From the IMG/VR virus record IMGVR_UViG_3300032007_000055, positions 1 to 64,000 of that record: a stretch of 64,000 nucleotides of DNA, one strand, 5' to 3'. The notes under the pieces are model-generated. The model did not search any database, was not told the DNA's origin, and saw only the letters and a list, made by a program, of their open reading frames with translations. Positions 27,022 to 45,478 of the stretch are shown one piece after another. Numbering within the stretch: the first letter of the stretch is position 1; each line of letters begins with the position of its first letter. Origin of the DNA: a virus. Taxonomy: Duplodnaviria > Caudoviricetes. A program made the position numbers and the translations under genes.

Positions 27022-29097
27022 TTAACGTTGCATGTAAGCAGCACCGGTTTCTAACTGACGTCTCTGGATTTCCTCAACGTCGATATTTGGTGAGAACAAT
27101 GTGATCATGTTACCAACATTAATCAAATCGCTTACTGTTTCAGTAATGATGTTCAACAAGCACTTGTCAGTGTTTCTAGGAACGATCAAAGTTGTACACT
27201 TTTCTGAATCCAAGCAATTAAACGGTTCCATCTGATTACTCATGATGTTGTAAATTACCGGAGATTCGGAAGTAATACACTCTTCCCATTTCTTGAAAGC
27301 CTTTGTAGAATCACGATACATATTGTACAACGCATAGCGATATGCATTACCAAATGCAAATTCAATAGCTTCAAGAATCACTTCAACAATGTGCTTAAGG
27401 TTATCAAAGTTTTCAGCGGCTGTAATGTTGATTTTGATCTTGTAAATATCATCAAGAACACGGTCTGTCAAATCATAGAAATTATTGTAAATATAGTGAC
27501 AGATAGCCATATTACCACCGATAGATACACCGCCACTCTTAATGGCAGCAGCTACAGCGGCAGCAGCATCTTCTACTACAAGACGTCTTGAAAGTTTTGT
27601 CTTTTCTGAACGTCCGCCACAATAATAGAATGTTGTACGAGCCTGAAGATTATCGATTCTTCCAAACAAGTCATCTGCGGTATAATCTGTTCTGTGATGC
27701 TTAATTCTCTTAAGCTTTTCAGCCTGAGATTTCAAATCTTTGATCAATGCATCAAATTCTTCTGTATCAGGTTTACAACCAATGAAGTTTGTTTCTGCCT
27801 TTCCAGAAGATATGTGATCACAAGTACCAAGCATGTTTTCAAGCTGTTGTTTTCTAACATTCTTGTCAGGAGACAATTCTGTCATCTTTGTGAGTTCTGT
27901 GCTGAAGGGATGTGACTTAGTCATAAGACGGAGATCACTAAACCTGAACTGCTCTTCGATTTCCTTATTCTTAAGAATAATTGCACAAATGTTTAACTTG
28001 TGAGGTTTAGCAGCAGGATTTGCTTTAGGATCAGCAATGTCTTCACCAAGTTCATTATAACGAGTACCTTCAATACATTCACGAAGATATTGAGCAATGT
28101 TGTAATTGTATGAACTAGCAACAAGGAGCAATGGTTGTTTAAAATCAAATGCTACAGATTCAACAATTTGCTTCAAAGCAGGAAGATCTGTTTCAAGAAG
28201 CATACCATCAAACATAGCAACCAAAGGTTTATCTGCTTCCCATGTGAAATGATCAGCAGAATTATTCATTCGAGATTCATCCAACGGACCAACAGGAACG
28301 ATAAACGCGTTTGTACCTTCAGAATATTCTTCTTCAGTCTTTGACATTGTAACAATTACGTTTCCTCGTCCATCCAACTTATCACGATACAATTCGGCAA
28401 TCTTTTGACCTGTAACATAGTCATTATTTGCAGAAATAGTCGCTACCTTTGTGAGCCATTTAATAATATCGTCTTCGTCTTCTTTTGAATACGTTCCGTC
28501 AGCATTCGGTTCAGGGAATTTCTTCTGGTAAGCTTTATTGTCGGTAATTCCTTCAATAATATTCTTTACACAAATGTTTGTGATATTCTTGATACCTACC
28601 GGAGAGAATGTCCATTTGCCTTGTTTTGTGTCATTGAAAATTTCGATATACTTCTTAAGAAGAGCATGTTGAATCGGAATTCCAGATGATGTAGAATCGC
28701 CAACTTCAGACTGCATATACTCAGAAGCTTCACGAATAATCTTAAAAATTCCATTAGGAATCGGTTGTGTGAATTTCATGTTCTGGAGAATAGTGAAACC
28801 ATCACGAGTATAATAAACAGGAACATTGCGATCGGGTTGTGTCTGGATCAATGTACCATCAGCATAAGGTCCAATTGTATGACCAATAGCTGTTTCTGCA
28901 GCAGCAGAAATGTTTAGAATCTCGTCGACCACAGCATCATTCTTCAAAATATTCGGTTTAGAAGTTTTGTATTCATTCTTACCGAAACCAATGTCGGAAA
29001 TAGCCATATCAGAGAAATCGCCAGTGAACTTAGAAACCACGTTAACATTTTCGGGATTCTTTTTCATATTCTCGAATTCTTCTTCTATTTTTTCCAT
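27022..29097 (-). CDS. groEL: Phage-encoded group I-like chaperonin
   Basis: TIGPY (TLGPK), TRDGFTI (TKDGVTV), VGDSTSS (AGDGTTT), SANND, VEDAAAAVAAAIKSGGVSIGG (VEDALxATRAAVEEGxVxGGG). Confidence 0.9.
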   Translation of the reverse strand: MEKIEEEFENMKKNPENVNVVSKFTGDFSDMAISDIGFGKNEYKTSKPNILKNDAVVDEILNISAAAETAIGHTIGPYADGTLIQTQPDRNVPVYYTRDGFTILQNMKFTQPIPNGIFKIIREASEYMQSEVGDSTSSGIPIQHALLKKYIEIFNDTKQGKWTFSPVGIKNITNICVKNIIEGITDNKAYQKKFPEPNADGTYSKEDEDDIIKWLTKVATISANNDYVTGQKIAELYRDKLDGRGNVIVTMSKTEEEYSEGTNAFIVPVGPLDESRMNNSADHFTWEADKPLVAMFDGMLLETDLPALKQIVESVAFDFKQPLLLVASSYNYNIAQYLRECIEGTRYNELGEDIADPKANPAAKPHKLNICAIILKNKEIEEQFRFSDLRLMTKSHPFSTELTKMTELSPDKNVRKQQLENMLGTCDHISSGKAETNFIGCKPDTEEFDALIKDLKSQAEKLKRIKHHRTDYTADDLFGRIDNLQARTTFYYCGGRSEKTKLSRRLVVEDAAAAVAAAIKSGGVSIGGNMAICHYIYNNFYDLTDRVLDDIYKIKINITAAENFDNLKHIVEVILEAIEFAFGNAYRYALYNMYRDSTKAFKKWEECITSESPVIYNIMSNQMEPFNCLDSEKCTTLIVPRNTDKCLLNIITETVSDLINVGNMITLFSPNIDVEEIQRRQLETGAAYMQR

Positions 29098-29459
29098 TCT
29101 CTTTCCTCCAAAACACCCTTAGTGTTTTTAGTAATAGTGATTGATTTTAGTTTGCCTTTTGAAATATCATAATCGATGTTATTCGTATCACAATATTCCT
29201 TAATGTGTTCCATTTCATCGCGTTTGATGCTGGAATTCAATTCAACGTCAATTTGTTTTGTTTTCTTGTCTTGTACAATTTGATCTATTTTAAAATCATT
29301 AGTCATCTTTCCACAACTTTCTTCAAAATTGTGTAAAGCGATGTAATGATTTGTAAAGTTAACATCATATGGGCTTTCTTGCTTTCCGTTGGGATTGATG
29401 ATAGCATCGGCAATACTTACGATGAAATCAATAAGCGAAAGACCACTTCCTTTCTTCAT
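29085..29459 (-). CDS. Hypothetical protein
   Basis: 124 aa, overlaps chaperonin start; no GroES resemblance. Confidence 0.7.
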   Translation of the reverse strand: MKKGSGLSLIDFIVSIADAIINPNGKQESPYDVNFTNHYIALHNFEESCGKMTNDFKIDQIVQDKKTKQIDVELNSSIKRDEMEHIKEYCDTNNIDYDISKGKLKSITITKNTKGVLEEREWKK

Positions 29460-29510
29460 ATTAAGTATCTACCCTCAATATATTTTTAAATTGAAATAGT
29501 ATTACACCAA

Positions 29511-29960
29511 TTATTGTTTACCGTATTTTCTATTCATTTCTTTTAAGAATCGATCATCTAGCTTTGTTGTTTCGTTTTTGGTATATGCATTTATTGTACC
29601 GTTCTGTTTAAAAGCAGCATATGAACGATCTATGTTTTCAAATTCGTTATTTACTATGTTTTCAAATGTCGGTATATCCAACGTTAATAATTGTTCGAAT
29701 GTAATACGTCCCTCAAGCAATTTTGACGCGTTCAAAATATTTTGCATAATGCGATCTGCTTGTCGATCCATTACTTCGCGTTGTACCTTTTGTTTAACGG
29801 TATTCTTAGCAACCGAAAATAAGTTGTTAGTTACTTTCGGTTCTTCTTCCGGTTCGTCTTCAGCAATAGAATTTTTTATTTTGTTTCGATCGTCGTCTGT
29901 TTTCTTATTTAGCGCAGCAGTTTCACGTTCTTTTATACGAATTCTTGCCGCGCGATCGTA
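29511..29960 (-). CDS. -1 frameshift extension (T part) of tail assembly chaperone G/GT-like pair
   Basis: Frame open for 63 codons upstream of ATG 29771, from the T8 slippery run; no ATG in that frame further upstream before a TGA. Confidence 0.7.
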   Translation of the reverse strand, partial: YDRAARIRIKERETAALNKKTDDDRNKIKNSIAEDEPEEEPKVTNNLFSVAKNTVKQKVQREVMDRQADRIMQNILNASKLLEGRITFEQLLTLDIPTFENIVNNEFENIDRSYAAFKQNGTINAYTKNETTKLDDRFLKEMNRKYGKQ

Positions 29961-33441: not shown

Positions 33442-33600
33442 TTATTTGTTTTCGTGACATTCGCACGATTCACAATTTCCAGTACAAGTGTTGCCTTCGG
33501 CAGACTGTACTTTACGAGGTTCGTTCAATTTTCCATCCATGCTATCACGGATAGATTCATTCGAACGAGCGATCGTTTCATACTCTTTCGGATCTGTCAT
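33442..33600 (-). CDS. 52-aa protein with C-terminal Cys cluster (not in ORF track)
   Basis: MTDPKEYETIARSNESIRDSMDGKLNEPRKVQSAEGNTCTGNCESCECHENK; AGGAGG SD. Confidence 0.75.
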   Translation of the reverse strand: MTDPKEYETIARSNESIRDSMDGKLNEPRKVQSAEGNTCTGNCESCECHENK

Positions 33601-33642
33601 ATAGAACCCTCCTATTTTTATATATCTATATAGTAGATTTTA

Positions 33643-34032
33643 TCATTTTTTACTAAGTAAGCGTTTGTGTTCTTCTTCATAATCTATTGGTGTTAATTTA
33701 TATTGAAATTCTTTTGATAATTTAAAAACCAATTTCTTGATCATATCATAATATTGCATTTCAAAGTATTCCATCTTGTCAATGCTTTTTATTCTTGATG
33801 AAAGATAATATTTTAAAATTAGCTCCAATCGTTTAGGATTGGAGCATTTATAAACGTCTTTTATGTATTTGAGAAATCCAACAGTATCACTATTATTGTA
33901 TTCTCGCATACGTCTCCAGACGTTGTTACTGATACCAAATTTTAATGTGTCTTCTCCTCTGAAGTTGACACAAATCATATAAAAGTATTTTAATTGTTTT
34001 GATTGCTTCGGTATTTTTCTTTTGCGTCCCAT
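33643..34032 (-). CDS. GIY-YIG superfamily (T5orf172-like) nuclease
   Basis: YFYMI..LKFGISNNVWRRMREYN..LE..MEYF pattern. Confidence 0.7.
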   Translation of the reverse strand: MGRKRKIPKQSKQLKYFYMICVNFRGEDTLKFGISNNVWRRMREYNNSDTVGFLKYIKDVYKCSNPKRLELILKYYLSSRIKSIDKMEYFEMQYYDMIKKLVFKLSKEFQYKLTPIDYEEEHKRLLSKK

Positions 34033-34035
34033 ATA

Positions 34036-35343
34036 TTATTTATTTTCTATACATTTTCGATTTTGATTGCTACCAATCATTTCTGTGAGTTTCATCTTAC
34101 TGTCTTCAGCCGACATAATCAAAGACTGTGCTGCACTATCAAGTACTTGAATTGCACTCGATATATCACTAACCATTTGCAATCCAGTTACATTGCTTTC
34201 AATCATGTCTAACATATCAGACTTAGCAAACTCGCTATTTGATTCGATTTCGTTTATGATTTCTTCAGAATCCAAAGCAAATTCACCATATAGTTTATAC
34301 AACGGTTTGACAATTCGAATTTGTTTATTGCCAGCATCAAAGAACGTAATATCTACAATAACTTTCCTCGGATTCAAATACAGAACCATGTAGAAATCTT
34401 CATCTAACGTTTTATGTAAATTCGTAAATGTTTTCACAATATCATTATAAAGAATGTCTACAAAATGATCTTTTGCAAGATTATGGAACGGATAGAATGT
34501 GTTTAATTTTGTAATTCCTAATGGTTTATCAAGTCGTGTATCAAATATAATTTCTGCAGATTCAAATTGTACAAATACCCATTTGTTAAAGAATGATGTA
34601 ATAAATTCATTTACAGAAATCAATCTTTTATCAACACAATATGTTTCTTGTAATTGTCCATTGACTAATGTTGAAACGTCACTGTCAAATACCGAATATT
34701 CTACAGTCGTGTGCGAATCATATAATGTACCAACTGAACATTCTCTCGTTTCATTTTCATATTTAAATGCTTTCGCATCAAAATGATTGTAATATCTTGG
34801 ATTGTAATCGTTCGAATAAACGATTTCTTTAAACACAGGATCACTATGTTTATTATCAGAAAAGTTTATCAAACCATACGTGCTTGACGATGAAAGATTT
34901 ATGTCAACCATTGTTAAACCAAAATCATATAATTTATCCAATTCTGGTTTATTTATATCTTCTTCAACTATACAATGATTATTTGAGAACGCATATGTAG
35001 GAATAATCTTTGCCGACTCAATAAATGGTTTAATATTCTTTTTAATGACTTCAACCGAACAATGTTTAGGAAATTCCACATCGCAGAGGTATGTCGTTTT
35101 ATCATAGACAAATTTACTTGTTTTTCGATTATTGTCAAATGTTTCAATAACCGATTTGTTTGTTATTAAACAACAAATCTTCGTTATGATATTGTTACCA
35201 TCGATATTATAAACATTCTTATTTTCTTTCAAGAAGAAATGTATATTTCGTTCATATTTCTTAAATCCTAGTTCTTTCATCTTTTCTTCATCTGTTGGGC
35301 GATTGTTAAATGCTAAAATGTTGATATTGTTGGTAATGTTCAT
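34036..35343 (-). CDS. Hypothetical protein
   Basis: 435 aa, AGGAG SD. Confidence 0.8.
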   Translation of the reverse strand: MNITNNINILAFNNRPTDEEKMKELGFKKYERNIHFFLKENKNVYNIDGNNIITKICCLITNKSVIETFDNNRKTSKFVYDKTTYLCDVEFPKHCSVEVIKKNIKPFIESAKIIPTYAFSNNHCIVEEDINKPELDKLYDFGLTMVDINLSSSSTYGLINFSDNKHSDPVFKEIVYSNDYNPRYYNHFDAKAFKYENETRECSVGTLYDSHTTVEYSVFDSDVSTLVNGQLQETYCVDKRLISVNEFITSFFNKWVFVQFESAEIIFDTRLDKPLGITKLNTFYPFHNLAKDHFVDILYNDIVKTFTNLHKTLDEDFYMVLYLNPRKVIVDITFFDAGNKQIRIVKPLYKLYGEFALDSEEIINEIESNSEFAKSDMLDMIESNVTGLQMVSDISSAIQVLDSAAQSLIMSAEDSKMKLTEMIGSNQNRKCIENK

Positions 35344-38614: not shown

Positions 38615-39478
38615 TTACGACACTTTCTTGAAAAAATCCTTAAAGACTTTTTGACGAGCGATATCCTCGGACGATTGGTGGTCATACACAGAAATTTTCA
38701 AGAACTTTCTACCAAGATTAGCCAAGTGATCTATTTCGATATTGTGGGCTATTCTAAGCTGGTTTAAGTTCTCTTTTCCGTATATACAGAACATCCAATT
38801 AAGAACGTGCTGAAATCTTCTGTACTTTGTTCCGAGAACAAGGTCTATCGGGAAGGTGAAATCTCCAAACCATTTGGGAAGGATGACTTCGTTATACCCG
38901 ATGATGTCAGCGTTGATCTCTCTGTCAATGCATTCTTGGACTTCCATTCTGTCACCGGTATGAGCGATTTCGTCAGGAAGATCCAACTGATGGATCGGAT
39001 CGTCGTTAATACAATGCCCGATTTCATGAGATATTGTGAAATACTTAACGTACTTAAGAAATTCGTACTTTTCACAATAATCGTAAACATCGGAATTGAT
39101 TACGATGTAGTAACTGAGTGTTTCGGTTTCTTTATTTTTGTCACGCGTCCTTATGCATATTGAAAATGCCCCGGTTGTATCTTTAAACTCATTAATAAAG
39201 TCGACATTTTCACATATCAACATCATTTCATGAAATGATGTTTCGAGCATATAGATATCGTGCCCTTCATTTGATTTGAAAGGTGTTTTCTTTGCCAGAT
39301 CGTAAATGAAATCTATTGTCGAAATTTTATTGAATTTGAAGAATCCGCTACACCCTTCATCCTTCATGACCTTTTTGTCTCTAGCCTTAAAATCTTTTGA
39401 CAAAAAGTTATAGAGAACACCAGGTGTTCTCTTAGGGTCGTAATATTTGTTCCAAAATTGTTTAATGGCTTTATCCAT
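38615..39478 (-). CDS. Putative zinc metallopeptidase (HExxH)
   Basis: ISHEIGHC followed by EINADIIG third-ligand motif; early motif 39496-39506. Confidence 0.65.
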   Translation of the reverse strand: MDKAIKQFWNKYYDPKRTPGVLYNFLSKDFKARDKKVMKDEGCSGFFKFNKISTIDFIYDLAKKTPFKSNEGHDIYMLETSFHEMMLICENVDFINEFKDTTGAFSICIRTRDKNKETETLSYYIVINSDVYDYCEKYEFLKYVKYFTISHEIGHCINDDPIHQLDLPDEIAHTGDRMEVQECIDREINADIIGYNEVILPKWFGDFTFPIDLVLGTKYRRFQHVLNWMFCIYGKENLNQLRIAHNIEIDHLANLGRKFLKISVYDHQSSEDIARQKVFKDFFKKVS

Positions 39479-39563: not shown

Positions 39564-40262
39564 TTATTGTTTAATAATGTCTTTCCAAGGTCGGACATCC
39601 TTATTTGAAGGATCAAGACCGATCTCAGAGCACATTTTTTCCATAATGGCCAGTGGTGGAACAGCCAGTGGTGTCAATTTCAGATTGTCGAATTTATTAC
39701 CGACATACTCACATTCTAAATAAATGAGTCTATTAACTGAAACCAACTCATAATGATACTTTGGATCGTCCTGGTCAAAAACAACATTTACTGCAGTTTT
39801 TATTTTTCTGAAATACGGTTTGTGGCCTAATCCAGAAAAACAATCGTAAATATTGTCATAAACATCATCCGCGATTTCGGTTTCGTATTCGTCGTTAATC
39901 TCATTGCCATCAACAACACGTTTAATTTTACGTGTTAAATAGAAATGCAAATCAAAGTCGCTGTAAATGTCCGAATGCTTCAGGTCAACCCCATAATTAC
40001 TGGTCGTGAACTGTTTGATGAACAAATCACGACGTGCGTCAAATGTTTCTGGTAAGATAACATTATGGTGCACCGCGTCTTTCCTAAGTCTGATGACTTT
40101 ACCATCGTTAGTAAAATCATTAGCGCTTGAGAAATATGCATCGCGCTTGAAAGTGATGTCGTTCATTCTCACGAACTTCGGATTACTTTCAATTTTCCCC
40201 AACACATTATTACCAAAATTTTCCAAAGAAATTGGAATTTTGAATTCAACTTCTTTTCCCAT
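39564..40262 (-). CDS. CYTH / triphosphate tunnel metalloenzyme (class IV adenylate cyclase-like)
   Basis: EVEFK (ExExK), DAYF, IRLR, EYET, RKIKT, LECE; start refined to MGKEV. Confidence 0.75.
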   Translation of the reverse strand: MGKEVEFKIPISLENFGNNVLGKIESNPKFVRMNDITFKRDAYFSSANDFTNDGKVIRLRKDAVHHNVILPETFDARRDLFIKQFTTSNYGVDLKHSDIYSDFDLHFYLTRKIKRVVDGNEINDEYETEIADDVYDNIYDCFSGLGHKPYFRKIKTAVNVVFDQDDPKYHYELVSVNRLIYLECEYVGNKFDNLKLTPLAVPPLAIMEKMCSEIGLDPSNKDVRPWKDIIKQ

Positions 40263-40311
40263 AGGTACCTCCATTAATATAATATATAAGTCTTTTTTTT
40301 GTAGAATAACA

Positions 40312-40340
40312 AAAAAAAAAGAAAGCCCGAAAAAGCTTTC
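40312..40340 (-). terminator. Intrinsic terminator closing the putative ncRNA
   Basis: GAAAGC..GCTTTC hairpin followed by a long T run on minus strand. Confidence 0.7.
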
Positions 40341-40578
40341 TTTTTCCCACCCTTAATTGTTTCGTATATACAGTCAACCGTGTCGCAGTGTGCAACATCA
40401 AAATGGACTAAGATAACTCCACCCTATTAGGCGAAGCACTCGTTCATCAGAAGAGACAGGTTAGTCTAAGCACCGTAACCGCGCAGCACGGAATGACTGT
40501 CAAATCAAGGATAGTTCAGTTTTGAAAACTGCTATGGACTTGTCCCAACAGGCCTTATTTGTGATTCGTCCACTTTCA
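40321..40578 (-). ncRNA. Putative structured non-coding RNA, about 260 nt
   Basis: No credible ORF, GC-enriched, nested helices, own early motif (40584-40594) and terminator. Confidence 0.7.
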
Positions 40579-40583
40579 GTATT

Positions 40584-40594
40584 ACAATATGTAA
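40584..40594 (-). promoter_or_regulatory. Putative early promoter TTACATATTGT
   Basis: One-mismatch copy of the early motif, not followed by an SD. Confidence 0.55.
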
Positions 40595-40618
40595 TTCACT
40601 TTTTTTCTAACAAATATA

Positions 40619-40648
40619 GAATAGTGCTAACGTGAGTAGCACTATTCT
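40619..40648 (-). terminator. Intrinsic terminator
   Basis: GAATAGTGCTA/TAGCACTATTC hairpin insulating the ncRNA from the upstream operon. Confidence 0.75.
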
Positions 40649-40656
40649 ACAAATTA

Positions 40657-40896
40657 TTACTTCTTAAAAGTCTTGTATGTCATATTATTAAGTTTGCGTA
40701 AAAGTATCTTTAAAGAACGTCTAGCATCACTCTTTTCTTTAATGAATTTTTTAGAATCATTAGCGCGGTACATATCAGCAATATCATCAACTACCACACC
40801 AAGTACTTCTGCAAAATCCATATTTTCTGGACTTACATCTTCCAAAGCTTTTACAGATTCTTTGAATTTTTCATTATCGAATGTTTTTTCGCTCAT
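40657..40896 (-). CDS. Small hypothetical protein; start refined to MSEKT
   Basis: GGGAG SD, early motif 40947-40957. Confidence 0.7.
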   Translation of the reverse strand: MSEKTFDNEKFKESVKALEDVSPENMDFAEVLGVVVDDIADMYRANDSKKFIKEKSDARRSLKILLRKLNNMTYKTFKK

Positions 40897-44580: not shown

Positions 44581-44680
44581 AATTCTTTTCTACTTATATG
44601 TAAAATTATATTATTATGTTCGTTTTTATACTATATATAGAATAAATATAAAAAAGAGAGCAAAAACGCTCTCTTTTTAA

Positions 44681-45478
44681 TTAATCGACTTTGACAACTT
44701 GTTCAGGAAATAGTCCAATTTCACAATTATTTGGTCTAGGAAGATTGCGATATTTGTAAAACATATCGTATAATTCATCATCTATACCATTATGAGCATC
44801 TGGACCAATGATAGTTATCTTCTGGAGGTTATTTTTTATAACAAAATCCAATGTAGAAACAACATTTGGCGTAACAATACTGTTATAATTAGCATCTTTT
44901 AACAGATTATTGAAACCAACTTTGTCTTCACTAGCATAATGGAATTTGACTTTGTTTTGAGATACGCTTGATGGAAAGAATACCTTTTCAAAATCGCATC
45001 GTAGCATTTCACAATTCGGGAATTTATACGGAAAATAGAATCCAATAGACGAAAAATAATTAGACATTTTAGTTAATCCAATGAAAAGAGATGACTTAAA
45101 TGATAATTGCATTATTTTCCAATAAAATTGCTGCTTTATTTTATTTATAGTCTCTTTTGCCACAGTATTTTTAAATATTTCATAAACGTATTTAATACCA
45201 ATATCGTATTCATTCGATCGTGTAAAAAAACGTTCTAGATCGACTTTATAGTTACCTTCAAACAAAGAATTCATTACTTCAATCAAACCAATTGAAGTAA
45301 ATTGACATATATCGTCCCAATACACAAGACAATTTATTGGTTCTTGTCGGCGATTATTGTATATTTCTTTTAACTCACCATAAGTTATTGTATTTTTACC
45401 CATTTGTATTTGTGTATCGTCTTTAAGATTAGGATCAGTATGCATTTCTAGTTCAGGTATATCTTCTCTAATATCCAT
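44681..45478 (-). CDS. Hypothetical protein, possible HAD-like fold
   Basis: 265 aa; CLVYWDDICQFT resembles a degenerate HAD motif I. Confidence 0.35.
   Translation of the reverse strand: MDIREDIPELEMHTDPNLKDDTQIQMGKNTITYGELKEIYNNRRQEPINCLVYWDDICQFTSIGLIEVMNSLFEGNYKVDLERFFTRSNEYDIGIKYVYEIFKNTVAKETINKIKQQFYWKIMQLSFKSSLFIGLTKMSNYFSSIGFYFPYKFPNCEMLRCDFEKVFFPSSVSQNKVKFHYASEDKVGFNNLLKDANYNSIVTPNVVSTLDFVIKNNLQKITIIGPDAHNGIDDELYDMFYKYRNLPRPNNCEIGLFPEQVVKVD

What the first reader, a model, noticed from the sequence alone, without database searches (positions are those of the whole stretch)
40321..40594. Insulated ~260-nt structured ncRNA, possibly a 6S-like promoter mimic
Seen (minus strand): upstream terminator, early promoter, no SD or ORF, GC-enriched, then terminator. 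Nested helices found by eye: 40503-13/40348-58 (11 bp), 40494-500/40370-76 (ACAGUCA/UGACUGU), 40487-91/40378-82, 40478-83/40384-89 (CGCGGU/ACUGCG), 40461-66/40406-11, plus terminal hairpins GCUUCGCC/GGUGGAGU and CUCUUC/GAACGAG, and two 5-prime hairpins, giving a long rod with an A-rich bulge (AUAUACGAAA). From memory, the CGCGGUU / ACUGCGA pairing also occurs in E. coli 6S RNA. Inference: a phage RNA that sequesters host sigma-RNAP would suit a phage with its own RNAPs; otherwise a new RNA class.
Basis: partly seen in the sequence, partly recalled or inferred. Interest (0 to 1): 0.78.

Follow-up and report, generated by a model that had tools for sequence, protein, structure and literature searches.

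The report
Orphan structured RNA gene, jumbo phage
An uncultured giant phage from rumen metagenomes carries a self-contained gene for a folded RNA of about 265 bases that encodes no protein, is kept in at least five related phages and matches no catalogued RNA family; the suggested likeness to bacterial 6S RNA is not supported, and its job remains unknown.

Summary
On the minus strand, 40599-40305 is an insulated unit with an upstream terminator, a conserved promoter block, about 265 nt with no conserved ORF, and a strong terminator. The promoter is TACATATTGT-6N-G, with +1 at 40577. It is a one-base variant of the phage's abundant motif, which has the architecture of the AR9 early (virion RNA polymerase) promoter.

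The same RNA occurs at 92-96% identity in five other metagenomic phage contigs, although the genes beside it come and go. Outside a variable mid-rod, only 6-12% of columns vary, against 57% of four-fold sites in the neighbouring gene.

Transitions in stems almost always keep pairing. With only five close sequences, formal covariation is not significant.

No Rfam family matches, 6S included. The CGCGGU/ACUGCG helix does exist in E. coli 6S, but here it is the least conserved part.

Verdict: a real stand-alone structured ncRNA gene of a new family, probably made early in infection. The mechanism is unproven; a protein-binding decoy or scaffold is my best guess. The scan has noted comparable cassettes in other rumen jumbo phages, on unrelated DNA.

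The parts
40615..40651 (-). Intrinsic terminator of the upstream 79-aa gene. It insulates the unit from upstream transcription. It is absent in relatives L009 and L027, which lack that gene.
   Evidence: 15-bp stem, T-rich tail; alignments
40578..40599 (-). Conserved promoter block TGAATT-TACATATTGT-AATACT. It is a one-base variant (G at motif position 9) of the phage's repeated TAYATATTAT-(6N)-R motif.
   Evidence: 22 minus-strand copies; G or A follows the 6N spacer at nearly all intergenic copies; conserved in all 7 homologous sequences while DNA further upstream diverges; AR9 early consensus AAATATATATTAT-(6N)-G+1 in PMC5312081
40577..40577 (-). Predicted transcription start (a G six bases after the motif).
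   Evidence: inference; not measured
40534..40573 (-). 5' hairpin 1: a GUGGAC/GUCCAU stem with an inner helix and a 10-nt loop holding the palindrome AGGCCU. Nearly invariant.
   Evidence: helices 1-2, 100% of cells paired, 2 wobble-type changes
40517..40531 (-). 5' hairpin 2 (CAGUUU-UCA-AAACUG).
   Evidence: helix 3; A-U to G-U in L027
40503..40514 (-). 5' strand of the 12-bp closing helix P1 of the rod.
40470..40500 (-). 5' strand of the variable mid-rod (four short helices separated by small loops). It contains the CGCGGU segment.
   Evidence: 24 of 60 mid-rod columns vary; transitions keep pairing
40394..40469 (-). Sequence-conserved apical domain: a small AGAC/GUCU hairpin, a 12-nt single strand, a 10-bp hairpin (40412-40441) and an 18-nt single strand.
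   Evidence: 10 of 85 columns vary; three G-U to A-U changes in the hairpin of L009
40370..40393 (-). 3' strand of the mid-rod.
40359..40369 (-). 11-nt A-rich asymmetric internal loop (AUAUACGAAAC), opposite 2 nt on the 5' side.
40347..40358 (-). 3' strand of closing helix P1 (AAUUAAGGGUGG).
40305..40348 (-). Intrinsic terminator of the RNA (14-16 bp stem, 4-nt loop, U10 tail).
   Evidence: helix 10
40272..40288 (-). Separate consensus early-type promoter (TATATATTAT-6N-G) of the downstream gene (start codon at 40262). It shows that the downstream gene does not depend on read-through.

Best explanation
This is a real, independently transcribed gene for a structured non-coding RNA of about 265 nt, and it belongs to a previously uncatalogued family. 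The family is found in a narrow clade of uncultured rumen jumbo phages that encode their own multisubunit RNA polymerases.

Shown:
- The unit has promoter-motif-to-terminator architecture.
- It has no conserved ORF.
- It is conserved across relatives despite turnover of the flanking genes.
- The fold is specific to the minus strand: two 5' hairpins, then a rod closed by a 12-bp helix. The rod's middle varies in sequence but keeps pairing, and its apical domain and 5' hairpins are nearly invariant.

Inferred:
- It is transcribed early by the injected virion RNA polymerase from an AR9-type early promoter variant.
- It accumulates as a stable RNA.
- It works through its invariant single-stranded and hairpin surfaces as a binding platform (decoy or scaffold) for a host or phage protein during take-over. 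The mid-rod serves only as a spacer.
For: Architecture:
- Two terminators are present, and the motif copy count far exceeds chance.
- The motif matches the experimentally defined AR9 early consensus and its 6N-G start (PMC5312081).

Phage context:
- The record encodes an RNA polymerase beta-like protein and a divergent PolB. The nearest isolates are PBS1/AR9 at 25% aa identity.

Homologs:
- L004 is 95.6% identical, L009 and L010 93.7%, L027 92.9% and L013 90%, with partial copies in L008 and L005.
- The 79-aa gene is missing in L009 and L027, and the 232-aa gene is missing in L004 and L027.

Constraint:
- The RNA is 92-96% identical, against 65-90% identity at four-fold sites of the flanking genes.
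- Variable columns make up 9% of the 5' domain, 8% of P1, 12% of the apical domain, 6% of the terminator and 40% of the mid-rod. The p135 gene shows 57% at four-fold sites across the same five genomes.

Fold:
- Four of the five homologs, each folded alone, recover 54-61 of the 64 consensus pairs.
- Of single transitions away from Watson-Crick consensus pairs, 11 give G-U and 1 gives a mismatch.
- G-to-A and U-to-C changes fall at G-U pairs or are compensated in 7 of 8 cases, against about 23% expected.
- There is one GC-GU-AU series.
- The structure shows 17 further pair types, against 2-6 when partners are slid.
- 98.5% of cells pair in sense, against 83.9% in antisense.

No family: Rfam gathering and E <= 10 searches find nothing on the body of the RNA.
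Against:
- The promoter carries a G where every other intergenic copy has A. AR9 virion polymerase is reported to be sensitive to single deviations.
- All homologs are at least 90% identical. The column-shuffle control shows no significant covariation and only one double compensatory pair.
- Five transversions and one transition break pairs.
- The folding z-score is modest and is lost in L027.
- PolB four-fold sites are 87-90% identical, so part of the conservation could reflect a young recombination block.
- Nothing identifies a binding partner. The neighbouring proteins have no informative domains.
Confidence: 0.6

Rival explanations
1. 6S-like RNA polymerase decoy. The rod plus the large apical loop would mimic an open promoter and sequester host sigma-A/sigma-70 holoenzyme (or one of the phage polymerases) early in infection.
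For: - A phage with its own polymerases would gain from silencing host RNAP.
- The early-promoter architecture fits a take-over role.
- If the weak 4-bp hairpin is ignored, the apex is a loop of about 28 x 18 nt, invariant in sequence, between a long irregular stem and a 10-bp terminal hairpin.
- The window's CGCGGU/ACUGCG helix is identical to one in E. coli 6S.
Against: - No 6S model hit at E <= 10.
- The ends do not form the closing stem: 65 nt of 5' hairpins and a terminator lie outside the rod.
- The largest internal loop is 2 x 11 nt and asymmetric.
- The terminal stem is only 10 bp.
- The shared helix is the least conserved part of the RNA in relatives.
Confidence: 0.1
2. Trans-acting base-pairing small RNA. 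One of the invariant single strands (12 nt and 18 nt in the apical domain, or the 11-nt internal loop) acts as a seed against host or phage mRNAs. The terminator hairpin with its U-tail serves as a chaperone handle.
For: - The unit has the promoter-to-Rho-independent-terminator layout typical of bacterial sRNAs.
- It has long invariant unpaired stretches.
Against: - In the 90 kb of phage genome held, the longest perfect complementarity is 12-13 nt, within the range of shuffled controls.
- At 265 nt with an extended rod it is large for a seed-type sRNA.
- The host is unknown, so host targets could not be searched.
Confidence: 0.15
3. Not an RNA gene. The stretch would be a DNA-level element (regulatory or replication-associated region upstream of the polymerase module) or the decayed remnant of a gene. 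Its conservation would then reflect recent recombination, and its fold would be largely fortuitous.
For: - The genomes are mosaic: PolB is 95-97% nt identical while the neighbouring p287 is 79-88%.
- Covariation is not statistically significant.
- The z-score for L027 is not significant.
- The promoter deviates from the consensus.
- It lies just upstream of the DNA polymerase module.
Against: - Conservation is patchy within the element. The mid-rod is about as variable as third-codon positions, while the rest is 4-9 times less variable than four-fold sites. A single young block would not look like this.
- G-U-dependent pairing holds only on the transcribed strand.
- Transitions preserve pairs.
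- A dedicated terminator and promoter block are kept in all relatives.
Confidence: 0.1
4. Self-assembling 'ornate' RNA. Palindromic unpaired motifs (AGGCCU in the loop of hairpin 1, GUAUAC in the internal loop) would mediate kissing dimers or higher oligomers, as reported for some large orphan bacterial and phage RNAs.
For: - Both palindromes are retained in all homologs.
- Earlier scan notes on other rumen jumbo-phage RNAs raised self-pairing. These are untested leads, not evidence.
Against: - One or two 6-nt palindromes are expected by chance in about 108 unpaired positions.
- There is no covariation.
- No structural data exist.
Confidence: 0.05

Closest known systems
6S RNA (Rfam RF00013 and related 6S models)
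   Same: - A non-coding RNA built around a long irregular helix.
- A plausible role in transcriptional take-over.
- One 6-7 bp helix (CGCGGU(U)/(A)ACUGCG) is identical in sequence to a helix of E. coli 6S.
   Different: - No covariance-model match.
- It is longer (about 265 nt against about 185 nt).
- The ends are not paired to each other.
- There is no central bubble between two long helices.
- The shared helix is not conserved among the phage homologs.
- RNAP binding and pRNA synthesis are untested.
Early (virion-RNAP) transcription units of Bacillus phage AR9 (Lavysh et al. 2017, PMC5312081)
   Same: - The promoter architecture is TATATATTAT-like, followed by 6N and a purine start.
- The phage belongs to the same broad group. 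It encodes multisubunit RNAP, and its PolB is closest to PBS1/AR9.
   Different: - AR9 early units described there precede protein genes. This one has no ORF.
- The promoter carries one non-consensus base.
- This phage is only distantly related (25% PolB identity).
Non-coding RNAs reported for phiKZ-like jumbo phages (mentioned in PMC13282480)
   Same: They are phage-encoded non-coding transcripts of unknown function in phages that bring their own RNA polymerases.
   Different: - There is no sequence or model similarity.
- Search of the phage isolate collection found nothing.
- The phiKZ RNAs have expression data and this one has none.
Orphan structured phage and bacterial RNAs in Rfam (e.g. 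ROOL, GOLLD, raiA, manA motifs)
   Same: They are conserved folded RNAs without an assigned function, several of them phage-borne and separately transcribed.
   Different: - None of their models matches.
- This RNA is smaller than ROOL and GOLLD.
- Its predicted fold is a simple rod with a branched tip.
- It is known so far from only six near-identical sources.

Membership tests
6S RNA | Match to a 6S covariance model (RF00013, RF01685 and relatives). | tested here: not met
   cmscan at gathering threshold and at E <= 10 on 40200-40700. No 6S hit appears; the only hits are terminator-like noise at 40248-40353 and 40587-40668.
6S RNA | 5' and 3' ends pair to form a closing stem, so the whole RNA is one rod. 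| tested here: not met
   In some searches, the first ~65 nt form two separate hairpins and the last ~35 nt form the terminator. Only the internal ~170 nt form a rod. Processing to a rod cannot be excluded.
6S RNA | A large central bubble flanked on both sides by long irregular helices (open-promoter mimic). | tested here: inconclusive
   The internal loops are 2x11, 2x1, 4x2 and 4x0 nt. The only large loop is apical and is followed by a hairpin of just 10 bp. This is not the canonical layout, and secondary-structure prediction alone cannot settle it.
6S RNA | Binds RNAP holoenzyme and templates product RNA. | not testable with these tools
   This needs biochemistry.
   The helix exists in E. 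coli ssrS, where nt 72-78 pair with 113-119. In the phage relatives, L009, L027 and L008 have a 2-nt deletion and L013 has GC-to-GG/CU-type breaks.
AR9-type early (virion RNAP) promoter | AT-rich consensus ...TATATATTAT followed by 6 nt and a G start. | tested here: met
   TACATATTGT-AATACT-G lies at 40593-40577. The genome-wide motif is TAYATATTAT-6N-R, with 13 G and 8 A at the start position. The consensus comes from PMC5312081. There is one deviation (G for A at motif position 9), conserved in all homologs.
AR9-type early (virion RNAP) promoter | Transcript appears early and independently of protein synthesis. | not testable with these tools
Rho-independent terminator | GC-containing stem-loop followed by a U-run. 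| tested here: met
   (40348-40313, 16 pairs, T10 tail). The stem is invariant in relatives apart from loop-proximal changes (helix 10).
Hammerhead ribozyme | Invariant core CUGANGA ... GAAA with three flanking stems. | tested here: not met
   CUGAUGA and CGAAAC occur in the window. L013 has CUGGUGA, and L004, L027 and L013 have CGCAAC. The required stems are absent and there is no Rfam hit.
T-box leader | T-box sequence AGGGUGGNACCGCG within an antiterminator that competes with the terminator. | tested here: not met
   Only AAGGGUGG resembles it. It is AAUGGUGG in L027. No complementary CCCU lies downstream, and there is no Rfam T-box hit.

The most novel reading that the evidence does not exclude
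The RNA is an early-expressed, phage-encoded decoy that captures a central host machine in the first minutes of infection. That target could be host RNA polymerase holoenzyme in a 6S-like but structurally independent way, or a host RNA-sensing defence or RNA-processing protein. This would be a non-protein host take-over factor in a phage that transcribes itself with its own polymerases.
Probability: 0.15. Interest if true: 0.85.

Novelty: new variant of a known kind. Interest (0 to 1): 0.45.

Why it matters
Jumbo phages with their own RNA polymerases are a model for viral independence from the host. Almost nothing is known about their non-coding RNAs.

This gene is dedicated, insulated, probably early, and kept while the neighbouring protein genes are swapped. 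That suggests the RNA itself is useful to the phage. If it proves to be a decoy for host polymerase or for a defence sensor, it would add an RNA-based take-over mechanism to phage biology.

As it stands, it is a well-delimited candidate for a new RNA family, with a ready covariance model (R1) and clear experiments to run.

Tried and rejected
- **Rfam.** Searches at gathering threshold and at E <= 10 found nothing on the RNA body.
- **tRNA/tmRNA.** ARAGORN found none here.
- **Isolate phage genomes.** blastn of the unit and tblastn of the 232-aa neighbour found no match.
- **IMG/VR.** Peptide searches with p232, p135, PolB, the p135 alignment and the p79 alignment, plus three RNA patterns, found no relatives. 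The 13 pattern hits were chance matches.
- **GTDB genomes.** An RNA 20-mer and the p135 alignment found nothing.
- **JGI/NCBI metagenome scan.** Only L027 turned up.
- **More distant relatives.**
  - L002 carries the 232-aa gene in another context, without the RNA in the part held.
  - L006, L007 and L011 end before the RNA site.
  - L012 has other genes after p135.
  - L028 has only 58 nt upstream of the p287 homolog.
  - The distribution beyond the ~77%-aa-identity clade is therefore unknown.
- **Paralogs in the 90-kb record.** Model R1 gave only weak hits to promoter/terminator-like intergenic spots.
- **Antisense targets in the phage genome.** Nothing exceeded the shuffled controls.
- **Coding potential.** No conserved ORF on either strand.
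- **Hammerhead and T-box resemblances.** Their key bases mutate in relatives.
- **Riboswitch or attenuator of the downstream gene.** This was rejected for four reasons:
  - The gene has its own consensus promoter after the terminator.
  - The gene differs between relatives.
  - P1 abuts the terminator rather than competing with it.
  - No aptamer model matches.
- **Neighbour proteins.** Pfam and PHROGs gave no informative domains.

Full report
**What the window is.** The window is the first 64 kb of a 90-kb IMG/VR virus record estimated to be about 32% complete. It encodes a 1711-aa RNA polymerase beta-like protein and a divergent family-B DNA polymerase. The nearest isolate relatives of that polymerase are the Bacillus jumbo phages PBS1 and AR9, at only 25% identity. 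Contigs carrying near-identical or related DNA come from rumen-type metagenome assemblies.

**The observation.** The minus-strand gap between the 79-aa gene (stop at 40657) and the next gene (start at 40262) contains the following:
- a 15-bp terminator at 40651-40615;
- a stretch at 44-45% GC in a genome of about 33% GC;
- a 16-bp terminator with a T10 tail at 40348-40313.

Without the terminator the core gives z = -2.4 in sense but only -0.2 for the opposite strand.

- two 5' hairpins (40573-40534 and 40531-40517);
- a 12-bp closing helix (40514-40503 with 40358-40347);
- an 11-nt A-rich loop opposite 2 nt;
- a series of short helices;
- the GCUUCGCC/GGUGGAGU hairpin.

There is no conserved ORF. 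The only sense frame starts at TTG without an SD and runs through the terminator. It changes residue at almost every substitution, and it ends differently as the T-run length changes.

**Promoter.** TATATATTATAT occurs 16 times in the window with at most 1 mismatch, against 2 expected. Across the 90-kb record, TAYATATT[A/G]T occurs 22 times on the gene strand and 4 times on the other. The gene-strand copies lie mostly just upstream of start codons, a tRNA-like gene and an RNA cluster. The base after a 6-nt spacer is G in 13 copies and A in 8. This is the architecture determined experimentally for AR9 early promoters, AAATATATATTAT-(6N)-G+1, which are read by the injected virion polymerase (PMC5312081).

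The RNA is preceded by TACATATTGT-AATACT-G, which puts the start at G 40577. This copy has G where every other intergenic copy has A. The block TGAATT...ACTG is nevertheless identical or nearly so in all homologs, while the sequence further upstream is unrelated between them. The downstream gene has its own perfect copy of the motif after the terminator (40288-40279). The unit is therefore insulated on both sides. Early, virion-polymerase transcription is an inference by analogy and has not been measured.

**Homologs.** Isolate phage genomes, IMG/VR and GTDB genomes gave nothing. Relatives of the neighbouring 135-aa protein (68-90% aa identity) led to contigs that carry the RNA:

| Locus | Identity to the window RNA |
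|---|---|
| L004 | 95.6% |
| L009 and L010 | 93.7% |
| L027 | 92.9% |
| L013 | 90% including a promoter-proximal insertion |
| L008, L005 | partial copies |

The surroundings differ between contigs. L009 and L027 lack the 79-aa gene and its terminator. L004 and L027 lack the 232-aa gene, so the RNA sits directly before the 283/287-aa gene. In L002 the 232-aa gene lies elsewhere, without the RNA. The RNA cassette is thus the stable element of a locus whose protein genes turn over. Contigs of the more distant relatives end before the site, so the wider distribution is unknown.

**Constraint.** Pairwise, the RNA is 92-96% identical, while four-fold degenerate sites are less conserved:

| Flanking gene | Four-fold site identity |
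|---|---|
| p287 | 65-72% |
| p135 | 69-83% |
| p79 | 78-83% |
| PolB | 87-90% |

Across the same five genomes, 57% of four-fold sites and 42% of third positions of p135 vary. In the RNA, 17% of columns vary overall, and the variation is very uneven:

| RNA region | Variable columns |
|---|---|
| 5' hairpins | 9% |
| P1 | 8% |
| Apical domain | 12% |
| Terminator | 6% |
| Mid-rod | 40% |

The mid-rod serves as an internal control. It shows that the lineages are old enough to have diverged, so the near-invariance of the other parts, paired and unpaired alike, reflects purifying selection rather than one young recombination block. The mosaic nature of these genomes still calls for some caution.

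**Structure support.**
- Folded alone, four of the five full-length homologs recover 54-61 of 64 consensus pairs. L004 recovers 40, differing only in the apex.
- Among single transitions away from a Watson-Crick consensus pair, 11 give G-U and one gives A-C. Under strand-symmetric mutation a 1:1 ratio is expected, so the binomial p is about 0.003.
- G-to-A and U-to-C changes would break a Watson-Crick pair. In 7 of 8 cases they fall on G-U pairs or are compensated, although only about 23% of paired G and U bases are in G-U pairs.
- One pair shows the series G-C, G-U, A-U.
- The structure has 17 further pair types, against 2-6 when partners are slid by 1-3 columns.
- 98.5% of cells pair in the sense reading, against 83.9% in antisense. 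This fits an RNA of the minus strand and not a DNA cruciform.

Against this:
- The column-shuffle control is not significant.
- There is only one double change.
- Five transversions and one transition break pairs.
- L027's z-score is only -0.8.

With five sequences at 90% identity or more, formal covariation cannot be established. The fold is well supported as a model but not proven.

**The 6S idea.** No 6S model, and no other model, matches the RNA body even at E <= 10. I fetched E. coli ssrS. In the phage family, however, this helix lies in the variable mid-rod. Three relatives carry a 2-nt deletion and other changes in it, and L013 breaks two of its pairs. The identity with E. coli is therefore fortuitous.

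The layout also differs from 6S. The ends do not pair with each other, the largest internal loop is 2 x 11 nt, and the only large loop is apical and followed by a 10-bp hairpin. Membership in the 6S family is rejected. A functional analogy remains possible but has no positive evidence.

**Other resemblances checked.**
- The window has CUGAUGA and CGAAAC, which recall a hammerhead core. It also has AAGGGUGG, which recalls the T-box sequence. All three mutate at positions essential for those families in relatives, and the required helices are missing.
- A riboswitch or attenuator reading fails for three reasons. The downstream gene has its own promoter, that gene differs between relatives, and P1 abuts the terminator rather than competing with it.
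- Complementarity to the 90 kb of phage genome held is no better than for shuffled RNA.
- The neighbouring proteins give no functional hint.

**Most likely mechanism.** Sequence, not just pairing, is conserved in the 5' hairpins and in the apical domain, including 12-nt and 18-nt single strands. The connecting rod is free to vary as long as it stays paired. This pattern is typical of an RNA whose ends are recognition surfaces held apart by a spacer. My best guess is that it is an abundant early RNA that binds a host or phage protein as a decoy or scaffold. I put the RNA gene being real at about 0.8, and the whole statement including this mechanism at about 0.6 or lower. A base-pairing sRNA, a 6S-like decoy, a self-assembling RNA and a non-RNA element are the rivals.

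**Relation to earlier notes of this scan.**
- The same stretch was flagged once more from an overlapping window (e1-5854891).
- Other notes describe stand-alone structured RNA cassettes in other rumen jumbo phages. None shares sequence words with this one, so they are parallel cases on other DNA, not evidence for this one.

**Verdict.** This is a real, cleanly delimited, conserved non-coding RNA gene of a new family in a small clade of rumen jumbo phages. It is not a 6S RNA, and its function is unknown. The interest is moderate.

Noticed in passing
G000 positions 67980-68706, minus strand (4-4.7 kb beyond the window end; L033:3980-4706): About 700 nt of GC-rich sequence without a convincing ORF follows a consensus early-type promoter at 68706, whose start region (TAATACTGGAACAGTGG) resembles that of the RNA studied here. 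Only a tRNA-Leu(UAA) is recognised in it (L033 4415-4501). The rest looks like a cluster of further unclassified structured RNAs.
   Followed up: partly
window 63624-63695, minus strand: A tRNA-like gene scores 55 bits with the Rfam tRNA model, but ARAGORN cannot assign an anticodon ('tRNA-???'). It is preceded by an early-type motif at 63726.
   Followed up: partly
window 53519-53629 and 44636-44729, minus strand: Model R1 hits these intergenic spots weakly. Both have a terminator followed directly by the shared sequence TATTTATTCTAT. This may be a second promoter class (middle or late) of this phage.
   Followed up: no
window 40657-40896, minus strand (79-aa protein): This small protein belongs to a widespread family (37 representative clusters at E <= 1e-3). 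The same ~70-aa module is repeated 4-11 times in proteins of 590-2845 aa. It has no Pfam domain.
   Followed up: partly
window 38615-39478, minus strand (287-aa protein): It contains an HEIGH (HExxH-type) motif, which suggests a zinc metallopeptidase. The only Pfam hit is a sub-threshold one to Peptidase_M3. It evolves fast (75-88% aa identity) next to a 98-99.6% identical PolB.
   Followed up: no
L006:5085-5256, L007:2520-2648, L011:1700-1838: Three Logan contigs from different samples all end at exactly the same base. The break is a few codons into the homolog of the 79/90-aa gene (MFDLFSLEND...). This suggests a repeat or a hypervariable junction that breaks assemblies just before the RNA site.
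   Followed up: no
L012:448-1527: A more distant relative carries two tandem copies of the 135-aa gene family, separated by a 94-aa gene.
   Followed up: no
window 61997-62581, 29097-29933 and 33473-34036: These are further intergenic gaps of 560-840 nt. The first gave a weak R1 hit at 62083-62158. They were not examined for additional non-coding units.
   Followed up: no
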